A stretch of 64,000 nt of DNA from Octopus vulgaris (taxonomy: Eukaryota), in NCBI GenBank assembly GCA_951406725.2, contig OX597818.1, positions 84,940,001 through 85,004,000 on the forward strand, given 5' to 3'. A model generated the notes under the pieces. That model saw nothing but the letters and a program-made list of their open reading frames with translations, was not told the DNA's origin and did not search any database. This document shows positions 14,975-44,884 of this stretch, one piece after another. Made by a program: the position numbers and the translations under genes. The number at the start of each line of letters is the position of its first letter. Positions within the stretch are counted from its first letter, which is position 1.

Positions 14975-17040
14975 GTCCTCGGTAGGGGTCCAGACGCGTG
15001 CTGATGTCCACAGCTTTGTGCGCCGCGTCAGGTTGGGTGCGTTTTTCCGCGACTCACCACCCGCATCCAACGATGAGGACTGCTTCACTGACCTGGGCCG
15101 CCGACCATCCCTGTGGACGCCTGCCCCCGGCCAGTTCCTAGCAGTGGGTCTTTTCGCGGGCGCCTGTCAGCGTGCGTTGGAGCGGTTCAACTTCTCCAGG
15201 AGCCACCGCCGCATCAACATCTCCCCGGCCGAGCTCTCGGCTCTTCGTTCCCTCCAACAAAGGTGGAGCTGTGGTGGTGTGGCGCGCGGACCTCTACAGG
15301 GCCGAGGCGCTCCGCCAACTCAATGACACCTCCTTCTACTCCCTTTGTCCTCTAACCCCACGCGTAGCTACCAACATACGGTATTCTCTACTGTCCACGA
15401 CCTCATCTCGTCCTCCCGTCTCCCCCACACCGCATCCAACCTCATTGTGCGAACCCCACGCACCCCCACCATTTACCTCCTCCACAAAATCCACAAACCT
15501 AACAACCCTGGCCGCCCCATCATCTCCACCTGTAACTGCCCCACGGAGCTCATCTCAAAATACCTCGACCGTGTCCTTGCCCCCCTAGTGGCATCTCTTC
15601 CCTCCAACATCCACGACACCAACCATGCTCTCCGGCTTTTCAACTCTTTCTCCTTTCCTCCCGGCTCCTCCAAAATACTTTTTACAATGGACATCCAAAG
15701 CCTCTATGCCGTCATCCCTCACCACGAAGGACTGCGGGCACTTCAACACTTTCTCGACCTCCGCCCCAACCCCGAACCCGACACCTCCACACTCATTCGT
15801 CTGGCCGAACTTGTCCTTTCTCTTAACTGCTTCTCGTTCGCGGGCGAGTTCTACCAACAGTTCTCGGGAGTGGCCATGGGAACGCGAATGGGCCCCAACT
15901 ATGCGAACCTGTTCGTTGGCTATGTTGAGGCCCAAATATTCTCTAGTTTCACTGGTCCCACTCCCGAACTATACGGTCGTTACATTGAAGACATTATCGG
16001 TGCCACCTCACTCTCTCGTGAACATCTAGATTCCTTCCTCTCTTTCGTTCAATCCTTCCATCCTGCCCTCCACTTCACCTCCACTATCTCCAACACCTCT
16101 GTCTCCTACCTCGACATTTCGGTCAGCATTCATCACTCCACTCTTACCACCTCCATTCACTACAAACACACAGACTCACACTCATACCTAAACTTCTCTT
16201 CCTCCCACCCCAAACACACCAAGCTTTCCATCCCGTATTCCCAATTCCTCCGTCTACGCAGGCTCTGTAGTGACGACCATGACTTTGAGACTCAGTCTCA
16301 ACTCATGGCTCGCCACTTCATCCAACGTGGATACCCCCTCACCACTATCCACACCGCCCTTGCCAGAGCACGTTCCGTAGACCGTGCATCTGCTCTCTCC
16401 CCCCGAACCCGCCCTTTAGTCTCCCGCCTCCCATTTCCCTTCACTTACAACCCCACGACCCTACCTCTCCAACGCACCATTCTTCGAGCTTTCCGGCATC
16501 TCCAATCCGACCCGTCCACTTCACACCTCTTCCCAAACCGACCCCTCCCCTCCTTCAAACGAGCCCATAACCTACGAGACCTCTTGGTCCACAGCTCCTT
16601 CCCTGACCCTACCTCCCAACCTGGCTCGTTCCCCTGCTCCCGCCCACGTTGCTGCACTTGCCCTTACCTCTCCAACACCACCCTCCACACTGGCACCCAT
16701 CATCGACCCTATCACATCATCAACTCCTTCACCTGCACCTCCAGCAATATCATCTATTGCATCTCCTGCTCTCTCTGCCATTCCCTGTACATCGGACAAA
16801 CGGGACGCCGCTTGGCTGACCGGTTCGCGGAACACCTCCGTGACATCCGCCTTGCCAACGACACACCGGTCTCACGCCATTTCCGCTCCACCGGTCACTC
16901 CTTGCAACATCTGTCTGTGTTCGGATTGTCCTTGCACAGAGACCTTCCGGATTCCCGTTTGCGCCGTGAACAGAAATTAATCTTCTCTCTTCGCTCTTTC
17001 ACGCCATTTGGTCTCAACTCTCCCCCTTCTCATCTAACCT
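14975..17040 (+). pseudogene. Penelope-like RT/GIY-YIG endonuclease, disrupted
   Basis: NKGGAVVVW (DKG motif), KIHKPNNPGRPII, MDIQSLY, GVAMG, RYIED (YIDD altered), YLDI, CSRPRCCTC, NIIYCISC..YIGQTGRRLADRFAEH; frameshifts near 15255-15345; loss of the stop near 17035 extends the 814-aa ORF into low-complexity DNA. Confidence 0.92.
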
Positions 17041-17933
17041 CCCCCGACTCCTACTTCTCTTCAGTCCTTCATCTTTTCACCCTACTCTCTTTCCCTCTTC
17101 TTTCCTCTTTCCTCTTCCCTCTTCCCCTTCTCTCTTTCTCTCTGCTCCCTCACTCCCCTTCTCTCCCCTTCTTTCCCATCCCCCCTCCTCTCCCCTCCTT
17201 TCCCATCCCCTCCTCTTCTCCTCTCCTTCCTTATCCCCCTCTCCCTCCTCTCCCCCTTCCTCTCCCCCTTCCTCTCCCCCTTCCTCTCCTCTCCTTCCTT
17301 CTTCCCCCTCCCTCTTTCCTCTCCTCTCCTTTCTTCTTTCCCCCTCACCCCCTCATCTCATCTCTCCTCCCTCCTCCTCCCTCCTCCTCCTTTCTCCCCC
17401 TCATCTCCTCTCTCCCCTCTCCTTCCTCATCCCCTCTCCCCCTATCTCCTCTCTTCCCTCCTCCCTCCTCCCTCTCTCTTCTCTCCCCTTTCACTCTCCC
17501 CACAACCCCCACTCTACCCCAACCTGCAGCCGAACCCACACCCCTACCTCCCCCTTTCACTCTCCCCACAACCCCCACTTTACCCCAACCCACAGCCGAA
17601 CCCACAACCCACATGGGCTTTCCCCACCTCCCACCACACTACACTACACTACACCATACGACACTACATTACACTACACCATACGACATTACACATCACA
17701 TCATACATACACCCATCCAGACCTTTCATACGCACATACATACTCTCTCATACACACACGCACCCTTATGTTGGGGTGAGGTCATTTGACCTTGTTATCT
17801 CCCCTTCTATCCCTCTTGCGTCTAACGTCTGATCTCTGACTTCTGGCCGAAATCAGACCGCCATGTTGATTCGTTAGCTCCTGCACGCATCTTTTTTCTC
17901 TCCTTGTTTCTCTCCGTGTTTCTTTTCTGTGTA

Positions 17934-19964: not shown

Positions 19965-21247
19965 CGAGGGGCGTTCAATAAGTAATGCCCCTGACCCACT
20001 TCCCATAGCAGTAGAGCAACGAAACTTGGCACAGTTATTAGTCTTTTTCTACATAGGAACCACCCAGAGTTACGCATTTCTCCCATTGTTTGATGCAGCT
20101 CTGGAGACCATTTTTGTAGAAGACCCCAGCTTGGTCCTCTAACCTGAACGTGACTTCAGAAATCAAGGCTGCATCATCTGGGAAACGCTTTCCTTTCAAA
20201 AACAACTTCATGACTGGGAAGAGGTGAAAATCAGAGGGTGCAAGGTCAGGAAAGTAGGGGGATGGGGGAGGAGTTAATAGCCATACGCCTGTGCTTCTGA
20301 TCTGGCGACAAGCGAGTTGTGGACCGGAGCGTTGTCCTGCAGGAGGAGGATGTCTTTGCTGATCTTGCCCCGCCTCTTGATTTTGATAACTTCTCTTAAT
20401 TTCCTCAAAAGTGAAGCATAATAGGCTCCTGCAATTGTGGTACCCTTTGCCAGGAAATCTGTCATCACTACTCCGTCCTGGTCCCAGAAGATTGTGAGCA
20501 TGACCTTGCCAGCGGAGGGCTGCACCCTTGCCTTCTTTGGAGGGGGTGAGTCACGGTGCTTCCACTGCATTGACTGGGCTTTGGTCTCTGGATCATCGTG
20601 ATGGACCCAGGTTTCATCCTGTGTAATCAGTCTTTTGAAAAATTTTGACTCATCTTCTTGGCACATCTCCAAATTCACCCTCGAGCACTCGACGCGTTCT
20701 TGCTTCTGGAAAGGCGTGAGCAACCTGGGAACCCATCTGGCAGACACCTTTTGCAGATGCAAATGGTCATGAATGATAGTTTCCACAGACCCGGTACTAA
20801 TCTTGACCTCATGGGCTATTTGGCGAATAATTATGCGTCGATCTTCCAAAATGGCAGCCTCAACTTGACGGACAGATGCCTCATCAATGGCAAAAGGGTC
20901 GATCAGATCTGGGAGCTGCTTCCACAGAGTTCCGACCATGTTTGAATTCACGATGCCAGCGTTTTACAAAGTCATATGATGGGGCATCATCACCATAAGT
21001 TACTTTCATTTCATCAAAAGTCTCACGTGGTGTGCGTCCTTTCAAATACAAAAAACGGATCACTGCTCGACACTCAACAGGCTCCATTTCACACTTGACT
21101 CGTTTCAAACACCTGTAAATCAGAAACCACAATTAATTCAGAGCTGTAATTTGCTCTATAGAGATATAAATAATTGCACATACAAAATTTCAGCTAGATC
21201 CAACAACTGCAAGTGGGTCAGAGGCATTACTTATTGAACGTCCCTCG
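19965..21247 (-). mobile_element. Full-length mariner element (1283 bp) with TA target duplication
   Basis: TA|cgaggggcgttcaataagtaatgcccctgacccactt ... aagtgggtcagaggcattacttattgaacgtccctcg|TA. Confidence 0.95.
20038..21087 (-). pseudogene. Mariner DD34D-type transposase with frameshifts and a stop
   Basis: MEPVECRAVIRFL HTH, WVPRLL, QDETW, QDNAPVH, PDLAPSDFHLF, GSYVEKD*; split over several frames. Confidence 0.92.
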
Positions 21248-24143: not shown

Positions 24144-27341
<3,198 letters not shown>

Positions 27342-41210: not shown

Positions 41211-42155
41211 CTTTAATGTCTTGACAAAGGAAAGGATATAGTAAGTAGCGTAGTCAGTCCTACATGACCATATGAAAAGACAGGTGGGTCACAGTTAAAA
41301 TGTCTTCAGTCAGAATACCACTTCATAAAGGCTGAACTGGCACTAAATAACAATATTCAGGATCGTACTCATCATCATCATCATCCTCATCAACAGCATC
41401 ATCATCATCATCATTTTCATTATCCCCACCACCAATAACAACAACAACACTATCATCATTATTCATTAATACCACCATCATAATTAACTTCATCATCAAC
41501 ATCAACATCACTACAACTGATAGTATAATTACATCGCCATCGTCGTCAGTCATCATTACCGCCATCACTACGATCATCATCACTACCATCACCATTATTA
41601 CCGTCATTACCATCATCATCATAATCATCATGACCATTACCATCATCATCATCACCATCATCACTATCATCATCATCATCATTATAGTACCATCAAGGAT
41701 GTCATAATCATCGTTATAACTTATGTAAACAGCAGAAGTAGCCGCAGTAGCAACAGTCGTAGCAGCTGAGGTGGCGGCTGCGGTGACTGCAGTAACTCCA
41801 GCAGCACTTTGAAAATGATGCGGTTTCCTACAAACTTGCAATGATGTATAAATCTCCTTTCGATACATTATTGAACTGTCCAGGAAACCAGATTGATCTA
41901 AAAGAGACGTACACATATTCCAAGTTCTGGTATTTTTGTACGATTCAGAAAGAATTTTCACTTTTAGATTATTAATCATACCCTTCAAACACACCTGGTT
42001 CTCCTAGCAGTCGCAGCTATTACAAAGGGGATAATTACTTAACCGTGTTACTCACAAAGTCTAGGGGCCCAGTTCTAATCTATGCTTGTTGGGCCTTGCT
42101 GTCAATAAATAAGCACAACGTGCATTGATTTACTTATCAATATAATTGTGAGCTA

Positions 42156-42940
42156 AGACGGCGATCTGGCAGAAACGTTAGCACGCCGGGAGTTCAAATT
42201 CCGCCGAAGTCGACTTTGCCTTTCGCCCTTTCGGCGTCGATAAATTAAGTATCAGTTGCGTACTGGGGTCGATGTAATCGACTGGCTCCCACCCGCAAAA
42301 TTTCGGGCCTTGTACCTAGAGTAGAAAAGAATATAATCGTGAGCTTTAAGGCAGCGAACTTGTAGAATCGTTAGCACGCTGGACAAAACGCTTAGCGGCA
42401 TTTCGTCCGTCTTTATGGTCTGAGTTCAAATTCCACCGTGGTTGATTTTTGCCTTTCATCCTTTCGGGGTTGATAAAATAAGTACCAGTTAAGTCTTTGG
42501 GTCGATCTAATCAAGTTACCTCCACCCTCAAATTGCTGACCTTGTACCAAACTTTGAAACTCAGTATAATCGCAAGTTCAAGGCGGTGAGCTAGCAGAAT
42601 CATTACCGCGCCGGATAATATACTGAACGACATTTCATCCGTTTTTACATTCTGAGTTCATATTCAGCCGAGGTCGACTTTGCCTTTCATCCTTTCGAGG
42701 TCGATAAAATAAGTACCAGTTCAGAACTAGAGACGACACAATCGTCTTACCCCTTCACCCGAAATTGCTGGCCTTGTGCCAAAATTTGAAACTAATAAAA
42801 TCTCAACCTGGCAGGATCCTTAGCGCACCGGACAAAACGATTAGCGGCACAGCGTCCTTTTTAACGTTCTGAGTTCAAATTCCACCGAAGTTGACTTTTC
42901 CTGTCATCCTTTCGGGGCCAGTGACATAAGTACCAGTTGA
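42156..42940 (+). mobile_element. Four head-to-tail family A SINEs
   Basis: Four successive head + B-box + core units; several junctions share a tataat(t/c)g-like spacer. Confidence 0.85.
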
Positions 42941-43149
42941 GCAATACAATAGTTTATTGTAACACTTAGTGACAACTACATTGTTGAAGAGGTGCTTGTT
43001 CAAGGAAAATGACCGCGTGATTTTATACTGACGTGTTTATACATTTGATAACAAAATAATATAATTTCTCGGAATAAATGTCTAATTAAGGCCCTGAATC
43101 GGTTGAGTTGTCACAGTGTTGGATAGAATGCTAGGCCGGATGGGTTTAA

Positions 43150-44251
43150 GGGTGTCGCAAAGGCCTGGTTGGAGACCCAAACTTCCGAGTTCTTTTACAG
43201 GGTTTCGAAAAACTGAAGGACTGTTACAATAACTGCGTGAATCTGAAAGGAGAATATCTATAATAGTAAAAGTGAAATTTTGTCTGTCAGTCCGTCCAGG
43301 ACGCGAAATGTTTTCCTACGAGAGTTCCGGACCCCAGTTATGAACTCATTTGCATTCAGCGAATCAGAGCTCAACTATCAAACTGATTTATGAGCGCATA
43401 ATAAGTGATGGGAGATAAGATAAGGTCACTTGGGTAAGGAATGACCATGTTTATTTTCTCTTTTGATAATGCTTGTTGTTCTTGTTCTTGTTTCAAACAT
43501 GGCTGCCTCTACGAAGTTATTTGTGTTGTTGTTTACTTTGTAAAACAGTAAGGGGAGAGGGATGCTAGCACATCACCTTCCACCCACATTTTCCCAATCC
43601 ACATCTTTATCATATGGGGCCCTAACAAAATCCGATAATAGGTATCGATGCAAATCTATATAATTGTCTCCTAAATTCAGACATAACTTGGCGATCGGTC
43701 GACTTACAACACCTTTCTTCGTCTTGAGTTTACTTGCTAGAGTGTGTTTGCGACAACAAGGTCAAGGTAAGCTCTGATTGGCAGTATGCAAATGAGTTCA
43801 TTACCGGGCTCCGGAAGTTTCGTGGGAAAAATTTTTGCGTCCTGGACACCTGTATCTCAGTCTACATTTATTCTAAATAAACATATTACACCTTTTTGGA
43901 ATCAGGATGATCCCGAGATTGAAAATCTGCCCTTCATTGGGTTCTTGAACATTCAGCATTGGAATGAAGCCTGGATGAGGATATGTTATATGCTAACAGT
44001 TGAAAATTCAAAGTTTAAAAAAAGCTCCAAAAATTTGTGAACTTACAGGTTTTTCATTTAAACTGAATTTAAAGTAATACGATATTGGTAGGGTACCAAT
44101 AAATGCTCTGTTATTATTGCTCTCGCAAGATCTAACTTAAATGTCCGCACGGAATGCGATTTTTAAGCTAGTGTGTAATAAAATCAAAAATTAAACTGAT
44201 TCTCCTGTATTTTCTTTTAGCTAAATCTAGGAACTTTTCAGCACGACCTTG
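43150..44251 (+). mobile_element. Mariner 3'-end remnant split by a Helitron
   Basis: KAWLETQTSEFF/QGFEKLKDCYNNCVNLKGE before 43257; after 44171 the frame finishes YV* and runs to a mariner-like end ggaacttttcagcacgaccttg|TA. Confidence 0.75.
43257..44171 (+). mobile_element. Non-autonomous Helitron (915 bp)
   Basis: A|TCtataatagtaaaagtgaaa 5' end; hairpin cgca-cggaa-tgcg (44146-44158) then CTAG|T; no TSD; removal restores GGA GAA TAT GTG TAA of the mariner. Confidence 0.8.
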
Positions 44252-44884
44252 TACGTCATAGAAAACGGGTAACTGGCCCTACGAATCCCCGGCCTTGGCT
44301 GTCCAGAAATTGATGACTTTGTTGCAATCAATTCAAGCCAGGCCGCTGGCTTGAGGATAACTTCCTTTCCTCCTCCCTCCAATCTTGGAAGCTCTGTAAT
44401 GTGTCATAAGCACTGCCTTCTCTGCTGACTGAAAGACATATTAAAAATAAACTCCCTCACGATCTATAAACGTCACGTGTTAATGTTGATTGTTTCACGA
44501 TAAATTAATTCATATTTCATTAGTTGCATATTGCAAATATTTCATTATTCACATATAACCAACAAATAAAATTTCTTCAGCTATATTTCAACTAAATCGT
44601 TATTGAGTCCATGACTCCAAGAAAAATACATATTTTATATTTTATATTTCTTACATGTTTCAGTCACTGGACAGCGGTCATAGCGGCATCACTTTGAAAG
44701 ATTTTAGTCGAATAAATTGACCCCCAGGACTCATTTATTTATTTATTTTAGTCTGGTACTTATTCGGTCGGTCTCTTCTACTGAACCGCTAAGTTATGAA
44801 GATGTAAACAAACCGATTGTAAAGCGGTGCTTTGGAGACACAGACACAAAGACGCATACATACATACATACAAACATACATACA

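What the first reader, a model, noticed from the sequence alone, without database searches (positions are those of the whole stretch)
43257..44171. Helitron inserted precisely at A|T in a mariner, carrying mirrored octamer/CCAAT cassettes
Seen: 5' TC end, 3' short hairpin plus CTAG, A|T target and no TSD; excision restores the mariner end G-E-Y-V-stop. Inside is a 78-bp imperfect inverted repeat (43294-43371 versus 43770-43847). Its best-preserved part is a perfect 15-mer ATGCAAATGAGTTCA (POU octamer plus an AGTTCA half-site) next to ctctgatt(g/c)g, a CCAAT-like box. A third ATGCAAAT lies at 43648-43655 and a YY1-like AACATGGCTGCC near 43496. Established: these termini are Helitron hallmarks, and Helitrons can capture sequence and spread regulatory sites. 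Inference: a mobile, symmetric promoter or enhancer module, or a captured TIR element whose motifs were preferentially kept.
Basis: partly seen in the sequence, partly recalled or inferred. Interest (0 to 1): 0.7.

Follow-up and report, generated by a model that had tools for sequence, protein, structure and literature searches.

The report
Three nested transposons, not a module
This is a stack of three decaying jumping-gene fragments, one inside another, and the mirrored "regulatory" motifs are the matching ends of the innermost one, a Mutator-type transposon remnant, where they likely once drove its own transposase gene; they decay at the background rate, so this locus is ordinary.

Summary
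The Helitron ends, the A|T site and the mariner-type host are real, and empty copies of both exist. A deletion series links it to a five-exon MULE/SWIM transposase elsewhere in the genome; the window copy keeps that gene's stop codon. Octamer and CCAAT are the ancestral TIR sequence, about 50-65 bp before the transposase ATG. The "YY1" site is the antisense of the catalytic-glutamate codons plus a private substitution. In 36 copies picked without regard to the motifs, the 15-mers decay at 7.2% against 7.4% background (p=0.90), and the window's left CCAAT is broken. The nest is explained by a strong target preference, GTCC(G/C)GGAC, which the Helitron family carries; two other Helitron copies were hit independently at the same site. 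Side findings, both outside the window: the parent gene appears to be under purifying selection (dN/dS about 0.07-0.14), and its nearest relatives are from a sea urchin and a mantis shrimp. Verdict: ordinary nested transposons from a new Mutator family; regulatory-module reading not supported.

The parts
43141..43256 (+). Outer host, 5' part: mariner-type MITE, left TIR lost in this copy; frameshifted last codons ending G-E-Y
   Evidence: 19 sibling copies of about 225 bp; 3109 first-look candidates
43257..43293 (+). Non-autonomous Helitron, 5' end: TC start and short GTCY microsatellite
   Evidence: A|TC in 16 of 21 copies with a recognisable 5' end (29 examined)
43294..43302 (.). Left copy of the 9-bp target duplication (GTCCAGGAC); the single site in empty Helitrons reads GTCCGGGAC by majority
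43303..43376 (-). Mutator MITE TIR, the parent's 3' arm; holds the 16-bp run 43340-43355 with the octamer (43348-43355) and the broken CCAAT (43360-43364)
43498..43530 (-). 33-bp piece matching the transposase codons around the catalytic glutamate (29 of 33 identical to the parent); its antisense gives the 'YY1-like' site, whose A at 43497 is private to this copy
43648..43655 (+). Third ATGCAAAT, majority sequence of the family interior; decay 14 of 288 letters, not different from background (p=0.11)
43730..43749 (-). Last codons and TAA stop (43730-43732) of the transposase; deletion junction at about 43750
43765..43838 (-). Mutator MITE TIR, the parent's 5' arm, with octamer (43786-43793) and intact CCAAT (43777-43781); the ATG that follows in longer relatives is deleted here
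43839..43847 (.). Right copy of the 9-bp target duplication (GTCCTGGAC)
43848..44171 (+). Helitron body and 3' end: hairpin 44136-44167, CTAG 44168-44171; lacks about 38 bp present in siblings
   Evidence: 1408 first-look candidates; CTAG|T in 10 of 22 copies with a recognisable 3' end
44172..44253 (+). Outer host, 3' part, with right TIR and terminal TA (44230-44253)

Best explanation
The stretch is a nest of three non-autonomous DNA transposons: a mariner-type MITE, a Helitron inserted at its A|T, and a Mutator (MULE) deletion derivative inserted into the Helitron with a 9-bp duplication, whose mirrored octamer and CCAAT motifs are its two terminal inverted repeats and likely served as the promoter of the parent transposase gene. 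Shown: the three families, their empty sites, the duplication length, the target consensus GTCC(G/C)GGAC, the deletion series to a MULE/SWIM gene, the position of the motifs before that gene's ATG, and background decay of the motifs. Inferred: the order of insertion (from the nesting), that the transposase itself chose this site because the Helitron carries the preferred target, that the TIR worked as a promoter, and that the window copy is now neutral.
For: TSD: identity of the flanks is 0.74 for length 9 against 0.14-0.40 for lengths 2-13 (30 clean-ended of 44 copies) and 0.72 against 0.12-0.34 for lengths 5-12 (48 of 63 paired elements); exact non-consensus pairs such as TTACGGCTC and CGCCGGCAG occur. 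Target: 49 of 80 flanks chosen only by a TIR word give G27 T22 C33 C41 S40 G44 G31 A18 C32 of 49, with flat positions further out; empty Helitrons carry the same 9-mer. Independent hits: window, L122 (same MITE family) and L112/L156 (sister family) sit at the same Helitron site and share 0 derived substitutions in the MITE (31 and 39 each) or Helitron parts. Parent: elements of 1.0-2.2 kb with the same TIRs and 9-bp TSDs bridge the MITE to a 563-aa frame with MULE and SWIM matches; 31 of 58 homologues carry PF10551. Decay: both 15-mers 77 of 1065 letters (7.2%) against 918 of 12435 (7.4%), Fisher p=0.90, 36 copies. Maize MuDR TIRs hold the gene promoters (PMC3440606, passages).
Against: The parent's Pfam scores fall just under the cut-offs (MULE 26.3 against 27.6 bits; SWIM 14.8 against 19.6). 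No intact autonomous copy with both TIRs was found. The TSD search let the ends slide by up to 10 bases, which inflates the match at length 9. Octamers decay slightly less than background (right 5.0%, p=0.16; third 4.9%, p=0.11), and in the similarity-selected set the 15-mers were at 7.1% against 8.9% for the rest of the TIR (43 copies, some truncated). A family average cannot exclude co-option of single copies. Promoter activity was not tested, and the conserved parent gene has lost its own octamer and CCAAT.
Confidence: 0.9

Rival explanations
1. The Helitron captured the TIR element and spreads it as a composite, symmetric promoter/enhancer module.
For: Three composites exist; the motifs match known factor sites (recalled); the window and L122 have the MITE in the same orientation.
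Against: A 9-bp duplication marks insertion by the MITE's own transposase; composites share no derived changes and one holds a different sister family; a genome-wide junction pattern found 2 composites in 3 hits; motifs decay at background rate.
Confidence: 0.03
2. The history is as in the best explanation, but this particular copy was later co-opted as an enhancer or promoter.
For: Both 15-mers are intact here, as in only 5 of 36 unbiased copies; the junction is also present in a related organism (run X3, record 18); maize Mu ends can act as outward promoters (10.1101/2023.06.05.543741, title and search listing).
Against: 5 of 36 is near the 10% expected from background decay; the left CCAAT is broken; this copy is 6.5% from the family majority, above the mean of 5.8%; the 20 of 52 long frames of the window scanned gave only transposon domains or sub-threshold matches.
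Confidence: 0.06
3. The octamer/CCAAT-like words are only transposase-binding or structural TIR sequence and never acted as a promoter.
For: They lie wholly inside the TIR; the conserved parent gene has lost both words.
Against: Their order and spacing, octamer at about 47-55, CCAAT at about 59-64 and ATG at about 112-115 of the element, fit a proximal promoter; precedent in MuDR. This rival concerns only the promoter step and does not change the nest.
Confidence: 0.3

Closest known systems
Mutator-like elements (maize MuDR/Mu; Aedes Muta1) and their non-autonomous derivatives
   Same: 9-bp TSD, long TIRs, DDE transposase with SWIM finger, families that share TIRs but differ inside (PMC5225508, passages); promoters inside TIRs (PMC3440606, passages); palindromic GC-rich target tendency in Mu (10.64898/2026.05.18.725947, passages).
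   Different: TIRs are 74 bp; the target preference is sharp and lies inside the duplication, whereas Muta1 shows little or none and Mu only a statistical tendency.
Canonical non-autonomous Helitrons (Helitron1 type; features recalled)
   Same: 5' TC, 3' hairpin and CTAG, A|T target, no duplication, 367-422 bp in 9 complete copies.
   Different: The hairpin abuts CTAG; the internal cargo was inserted by another transposase, not captured; no RepHel partner was sought.
Mariner-derived MITEs (TIR and TA features recalled)
   Same: About 26-bp TIRs, TA flanks, a C-terminal peptide with the C-V-x-x-x-G-x-Y pattern also seen in 7 transposase-bearing mariners of this genome.
   Different: No transposase-bearing copy with these TIRs among 30 of 150 loci examined; direct peptide match not significant (E=0.91).
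Drosophila P element target motif
   Same: Core GTCCGGAC (PMC2577343, passages) resembles GTCC(G/C)GGAC.
   Different: P makes an 8-bp duplication and has another transposase; here the duplication is 9 bp and the parent is MULE-type, so the likeness is convergent.

Membership tests
Mutator/MULE | 8-11 bp (usually 9 bp) target-site duplication | tested here: met
Mutator/MULE | Long terminal inverted repeats shared by autonomous and non-autonomous members | tested here: met
   74-bp TIRs, 71 of 74 alike in the family majority; shared by at least five interior types and by the parent's left end
Mutator/MULE | Parent encodes a MULE DDE transposase with D, D, H, E residues and a SWIM finger | tested here: met
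   PF10551 E=1e-5 (1.3 bits under cut-off), SWIM E=0.021; 31 of 58 homologues carry PF10551; FIDA, TDDS, CVFH and YAE motifs align with them (residue roles recalled)
Mutator/MULE | Intact autonomous element with both TIRs | tested here: not met
   The parent locus has only the left TIR in 10 kb and a shortened C-terminus; not required for a derivative
Mutator/MULE | Transposition by the cognate transposase | not testable with these tools
   needs an assay
Merlin (other 8-9 bp TSD family) | IS1595-type transposase flanked by these TIRs | tested here: not met
   0 of 30 loci examined (of 150 hits) hold the TIR or interiors
Helitron (canonical) | 5' TC and A|T insertion without duplication | tested here: met
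   A|TC 16 of 21; empty host A|T 16 of 19
Helitron (canonical) | 3' hairpin followed by CTRR | tested here: met
   CTAG|T 10 of 22, most others one-letter variants; hairpin folds
Helitron (canonical) | RepHel partner with matching ends | not tested
   no search made
Tc1/mariner MITE | Short TIRs and TA flanks | tested here: met
Tc1/mariner MITE | Descent from a mariner transposase gene | tested here: inconclusive
   pattern likeness only; no parent among 30 loci
Co-opted cis-regulatory module | Motifs conserved above background | tested here: not met
   7.2% against 7.4%, p=0.90
Co-opted cis-regulatory module | Open chromatin or transcription start | not testable with these tools
   only contigs were available

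The most novel reading that the evidence does not exclude
A Mutator family entered the octopus lineage by horizontal transfer among marine invertebrates, inserted with unusually sharp 9-bp palindromic specificity (GTCCSGGAC), scattered about a thousand octamer/CCAAT-bearing ends, and left one immobilised copy that was domesticated as a host gene with its catalytic residues kept.
Probability: 0.4. Interest if true: 0.5.

Novelty: new member of a known kind. Interest (0 to 1): 0.27.

Why it matters
The locus itself is ordinary and shows how a transposon's ends plus a palindromic target duplication can mimic a designed, symmetric enhancer. Two by-products matter to transposon specialists: an animal MULE with a sharp target consensus (useful for classifying unassigned 9-bp-TSD MITEs and for studying target recognition), and a candidate domesticated MULE gene shared by octopus species whose closest relatives are in other phyla. 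Neither was found in print by my searches, but octopus Mutator families are already counted in a repeat library whose sequences I could not see (PMC13282606).

Tried and rejected
Parent search by Pfam: 60 of 66 PF10551 hits read as 10-kb stretches showed no flanking TIR pair (one had a tandem array of TIR pieces 4.5 kb away); the true parent was not among these hits. Merlin: 0 of 30 loci. The 5.5-kb element in L156 is a sister MITE swollen by other insertions, not an autonomous copy. Fourteen loci lacking a near partner TIR gave no parent at first reading; L256 among them proved to be the parent later. Mariner parent: none among 30 loci. Expression: no RNA holder listed for the window stretch; contigs of runs guessed to be RNA matched family copies only in short pieces; neither is evidence either way. 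The first decay test used copies selected by likeness and was replaced by the unbiased one. The careful tree did not finish; the quick tree was used. Earlier findings: four look-ups, nothing returned. PMC3879986 (passages) and PMC10294476 (passages) added nothing specific.

Full report
Observation. The window lies in a 2.8-Gb animal genome; the nearest named homologue of a gene from it is from Octopus bimaculoides at 96% identity, so an octopus is likely. Searching the genome with the 915 bases split them into parts: 39 other places scored matched only query 32-64 to 567-596, none the whole (2642 candidates, 40 scored).

Three layers. Outer: 43141-43256 plus 44172-44253 belong to a family of about 225 bp with about 26-bp TIRs and TA flanks (19 copies read); 16 of 19 have the empty A|T site, 2 have A|C and 1 G|T. 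It keeps only frameshifted last codons; a mariner parent was not found, so mariner descent rests on TIR, TA and peptide pattern. Middle: 43257-43302 plus 43848-44171 belong to a Helitron family (29 copies read); A|TC in 16 of 21 and CTAG|T in 10 of 22 copies with recognisable ends; 9 complete copies are 367-422 bp, and the window copy without the insert is 370 bp. Inner: 43303-43838.

The inner element. Its flanks are GTCCAGGAC and GTCCTGGAC. Of 30 loci (window included, two being duplicates), 21 have flanks within 2 mismatches of 9. Length 9 stands out in two sets (0.74 against at most 0.40, 30 of 44 copies; 0.72 against at most 0.34, 48 of 63); the end search was allowed to slide, which favours 9, but exact non-consensus pairs confirm duplication. 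Because the target is palindromic, the duplication extends the apparent inverted repeat by 9 bp. An exact 24-letter TIR word occurs 188 times (control 0); 4 of 96 elements among the first 100 listed have both arms exact, which suggests roughly a thousand elements (inference). Of 80 of these places fetched, 63 have a partner TIR within 3.8 kb, at 260-1133 bp, with several interior types.

Why it sits in the Helitron. In 49 of 80 flanks with an exact start, and with no duplication required, the nine bases read G27 T22 C33 C41 (C14+G26) G44 G31 A18 C32; positions further out are flat. Empty Helitrons carry GTCCGGGAC by majority at that spot. Among 11 other junction loci, two are composites: L122 (same family) and L112/L156 (sister family); a genome-wide pattern found 2 composites in 3 hits and missed the third, so the count is a lower bound. 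Window and L122 share 0 of 31 and 39 non-CpG derived changes in the MITE (mean of all pairs 1.2), and the three Helitron parts share none. One sister element sits in another element's TIR at a similar 9-mer (L181). A related organism has the mariner-Helitron-TIR junction (run X3, 140 bases, 8 differences), so the nest predates that split. All three families are about 6-7% from their majority sequence, close in age; a paper reports TIR and Helitron expansions in Octopus vulgaris at distance 0.09 (PMC13282606, passages and one supplement table).

Parent. One TIR locus continued into a coding remnant. Searching with it gave 19 other places among 20 candidates; most are longer elements with both TIRs, and the 7 tested are 1.0-2.2 kb with duplications within 2 mismatches. 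One place holds a 563-aa frame (L419) with MULE and SWIM matches just under the Pfam cut-offs. The O. bimaculoides protein maps to five exons there, starting 70 bases inside a left TIR; 31 of its 58 homologues carry PF10551. The window MITE is a deletion product in minus orientation: bases 450-529 match the 5' end and 1-447 the 3' end of the longer elements, and 43730-43749 hold the last codons and stop.

The motifs. Octamer and CCAAT are family-majority sequence in both arms; in longer relatives they lie at about 47-55 and 59-64, with the ATG at about 112-115. MuDR TIRs hold that element's promoters (PMC3440606, passages), so a promoter role for the transposase is likely, though untested. The mirror image is simply TIR symmetry. 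The 'YY1' site is the antisense of a 33-bp piece matching the codons N-N-T-N-N-Y-A-E-x-A-M of the transposase (29 of 33); the family reads ACCATGG and the A at 43497 is private. Decay in 36 family copies selected only on a TIR word outside the motifs: both 15-mers 7.2%, interior 7.4% (p=0.90); no single motif differs (p 0.11-0.82); both 15-mers are intact in 5 of 36, against 10% expected. Against my reading: octamers run slightly low (about 5%), and the earlier biased set gave 7.1% for 15-mers against 8.9% for the rest of the TIR.

Side findings. The parent locus lacks a right TIR in 10 kb, and shares its shortened C-terminus with the O. bimaculoides protein (94% identical over 553 aa). Against run X3 it differs at 12 of 983 bases; of the 10 listed, 8 are silent (dN/dS about 0.07, or 0.14 if both unlisted ones change a residue; p=0.0002-0.001). 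Contigs of runs guessed to be RNA cover much of the frame with 0-3 differences, a weak hint only. Next homologues are from a sea urchin (76%), a mantis shrimp (73%) and a ribbon worm (63%); in a quick tree of 30 of the 58 homologues (chosen among those with named animal hosts) plus the parent, these group with the octopus pair (SH-aLRT 97-99) while three snail proteins fall elsewhere. No clade test, root or host-gene control was run, so horizontal transfer is a lead.

Comparison and verdict. Muta1 makes 8-9 bp duplications with little or no sequence preference (PMC5225508, passages); maize Mu has a statistical palindromic tendency (10.64898/2026.05.18.725947, passages); the P element prefers GTCCGGAC with 8 bp (PMC2577343, passages). 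The inner element is a new member of the Mutator kind with a sharper target than those two MULEs. The finding is ordinary nested transposon debris; the regulatory-module reading fails its own test. Interest 0.27, most of it from the parent gene and the target specificity.

Noticed in passing
L256:346-7828 (G000:C28, about 2267945-2275430); L419:49-1737: Five-exon MULE/SWIM gene with a left TIR only, catalytic motifs kept, 94-96% identical to O. bimaculoides LOC106873077, dN/dS about 0.07-0.14 against run X3: candidate domesticated transposase.
   Followed up: partly
P0002, P0003, P0004: Closest homologues of the parent are from a sea urchin, a mantis shrimp and a ribbon worm, not molluscs: candidate horizontal transfer.
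   Followed up: partly
window 43498-43530 and longer relatives (L412): A 33-bp duplicate of the catalytic-glutamate codons lies after the stop codon in the element's 3' region; how it arose is unexplained (filler DNA is a guess).
   Followed up: partly
L181:1790-1860: A sister element inserted into another element's TIR at a 9-mer resembling the target consensus (self-insertion).
   Followed up: partly
L229:338-728: Tandem array of about 120-bp units, each holding the first 39 bases of the TIR joined to mariner-like sequence.
   Followed up: no
L158:4209-4416: Three tandem copies of TIR plus target plus flank beside a full MITE.
   Followed up: no
window 42150-42946: Four tandem copies of a roughly 230-bp repeat (spacing 193-232), by recall a SINE; the same repeat sits inside sister family B and beside many MITE copies.
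   Followed up: no
window 20277-20963 (-), 25163-25633 (+), 15327-17786 (+): A mariner transposase fragment (PF01359, E=6e-24) and two reverse-transcriptase fragments; the window appears to be mostly repeats.
   Followed up: no
G000: At least 150 Merlin/IS1595-type transposase matches, several with open frames of about 300 aa.
   Followed up: no
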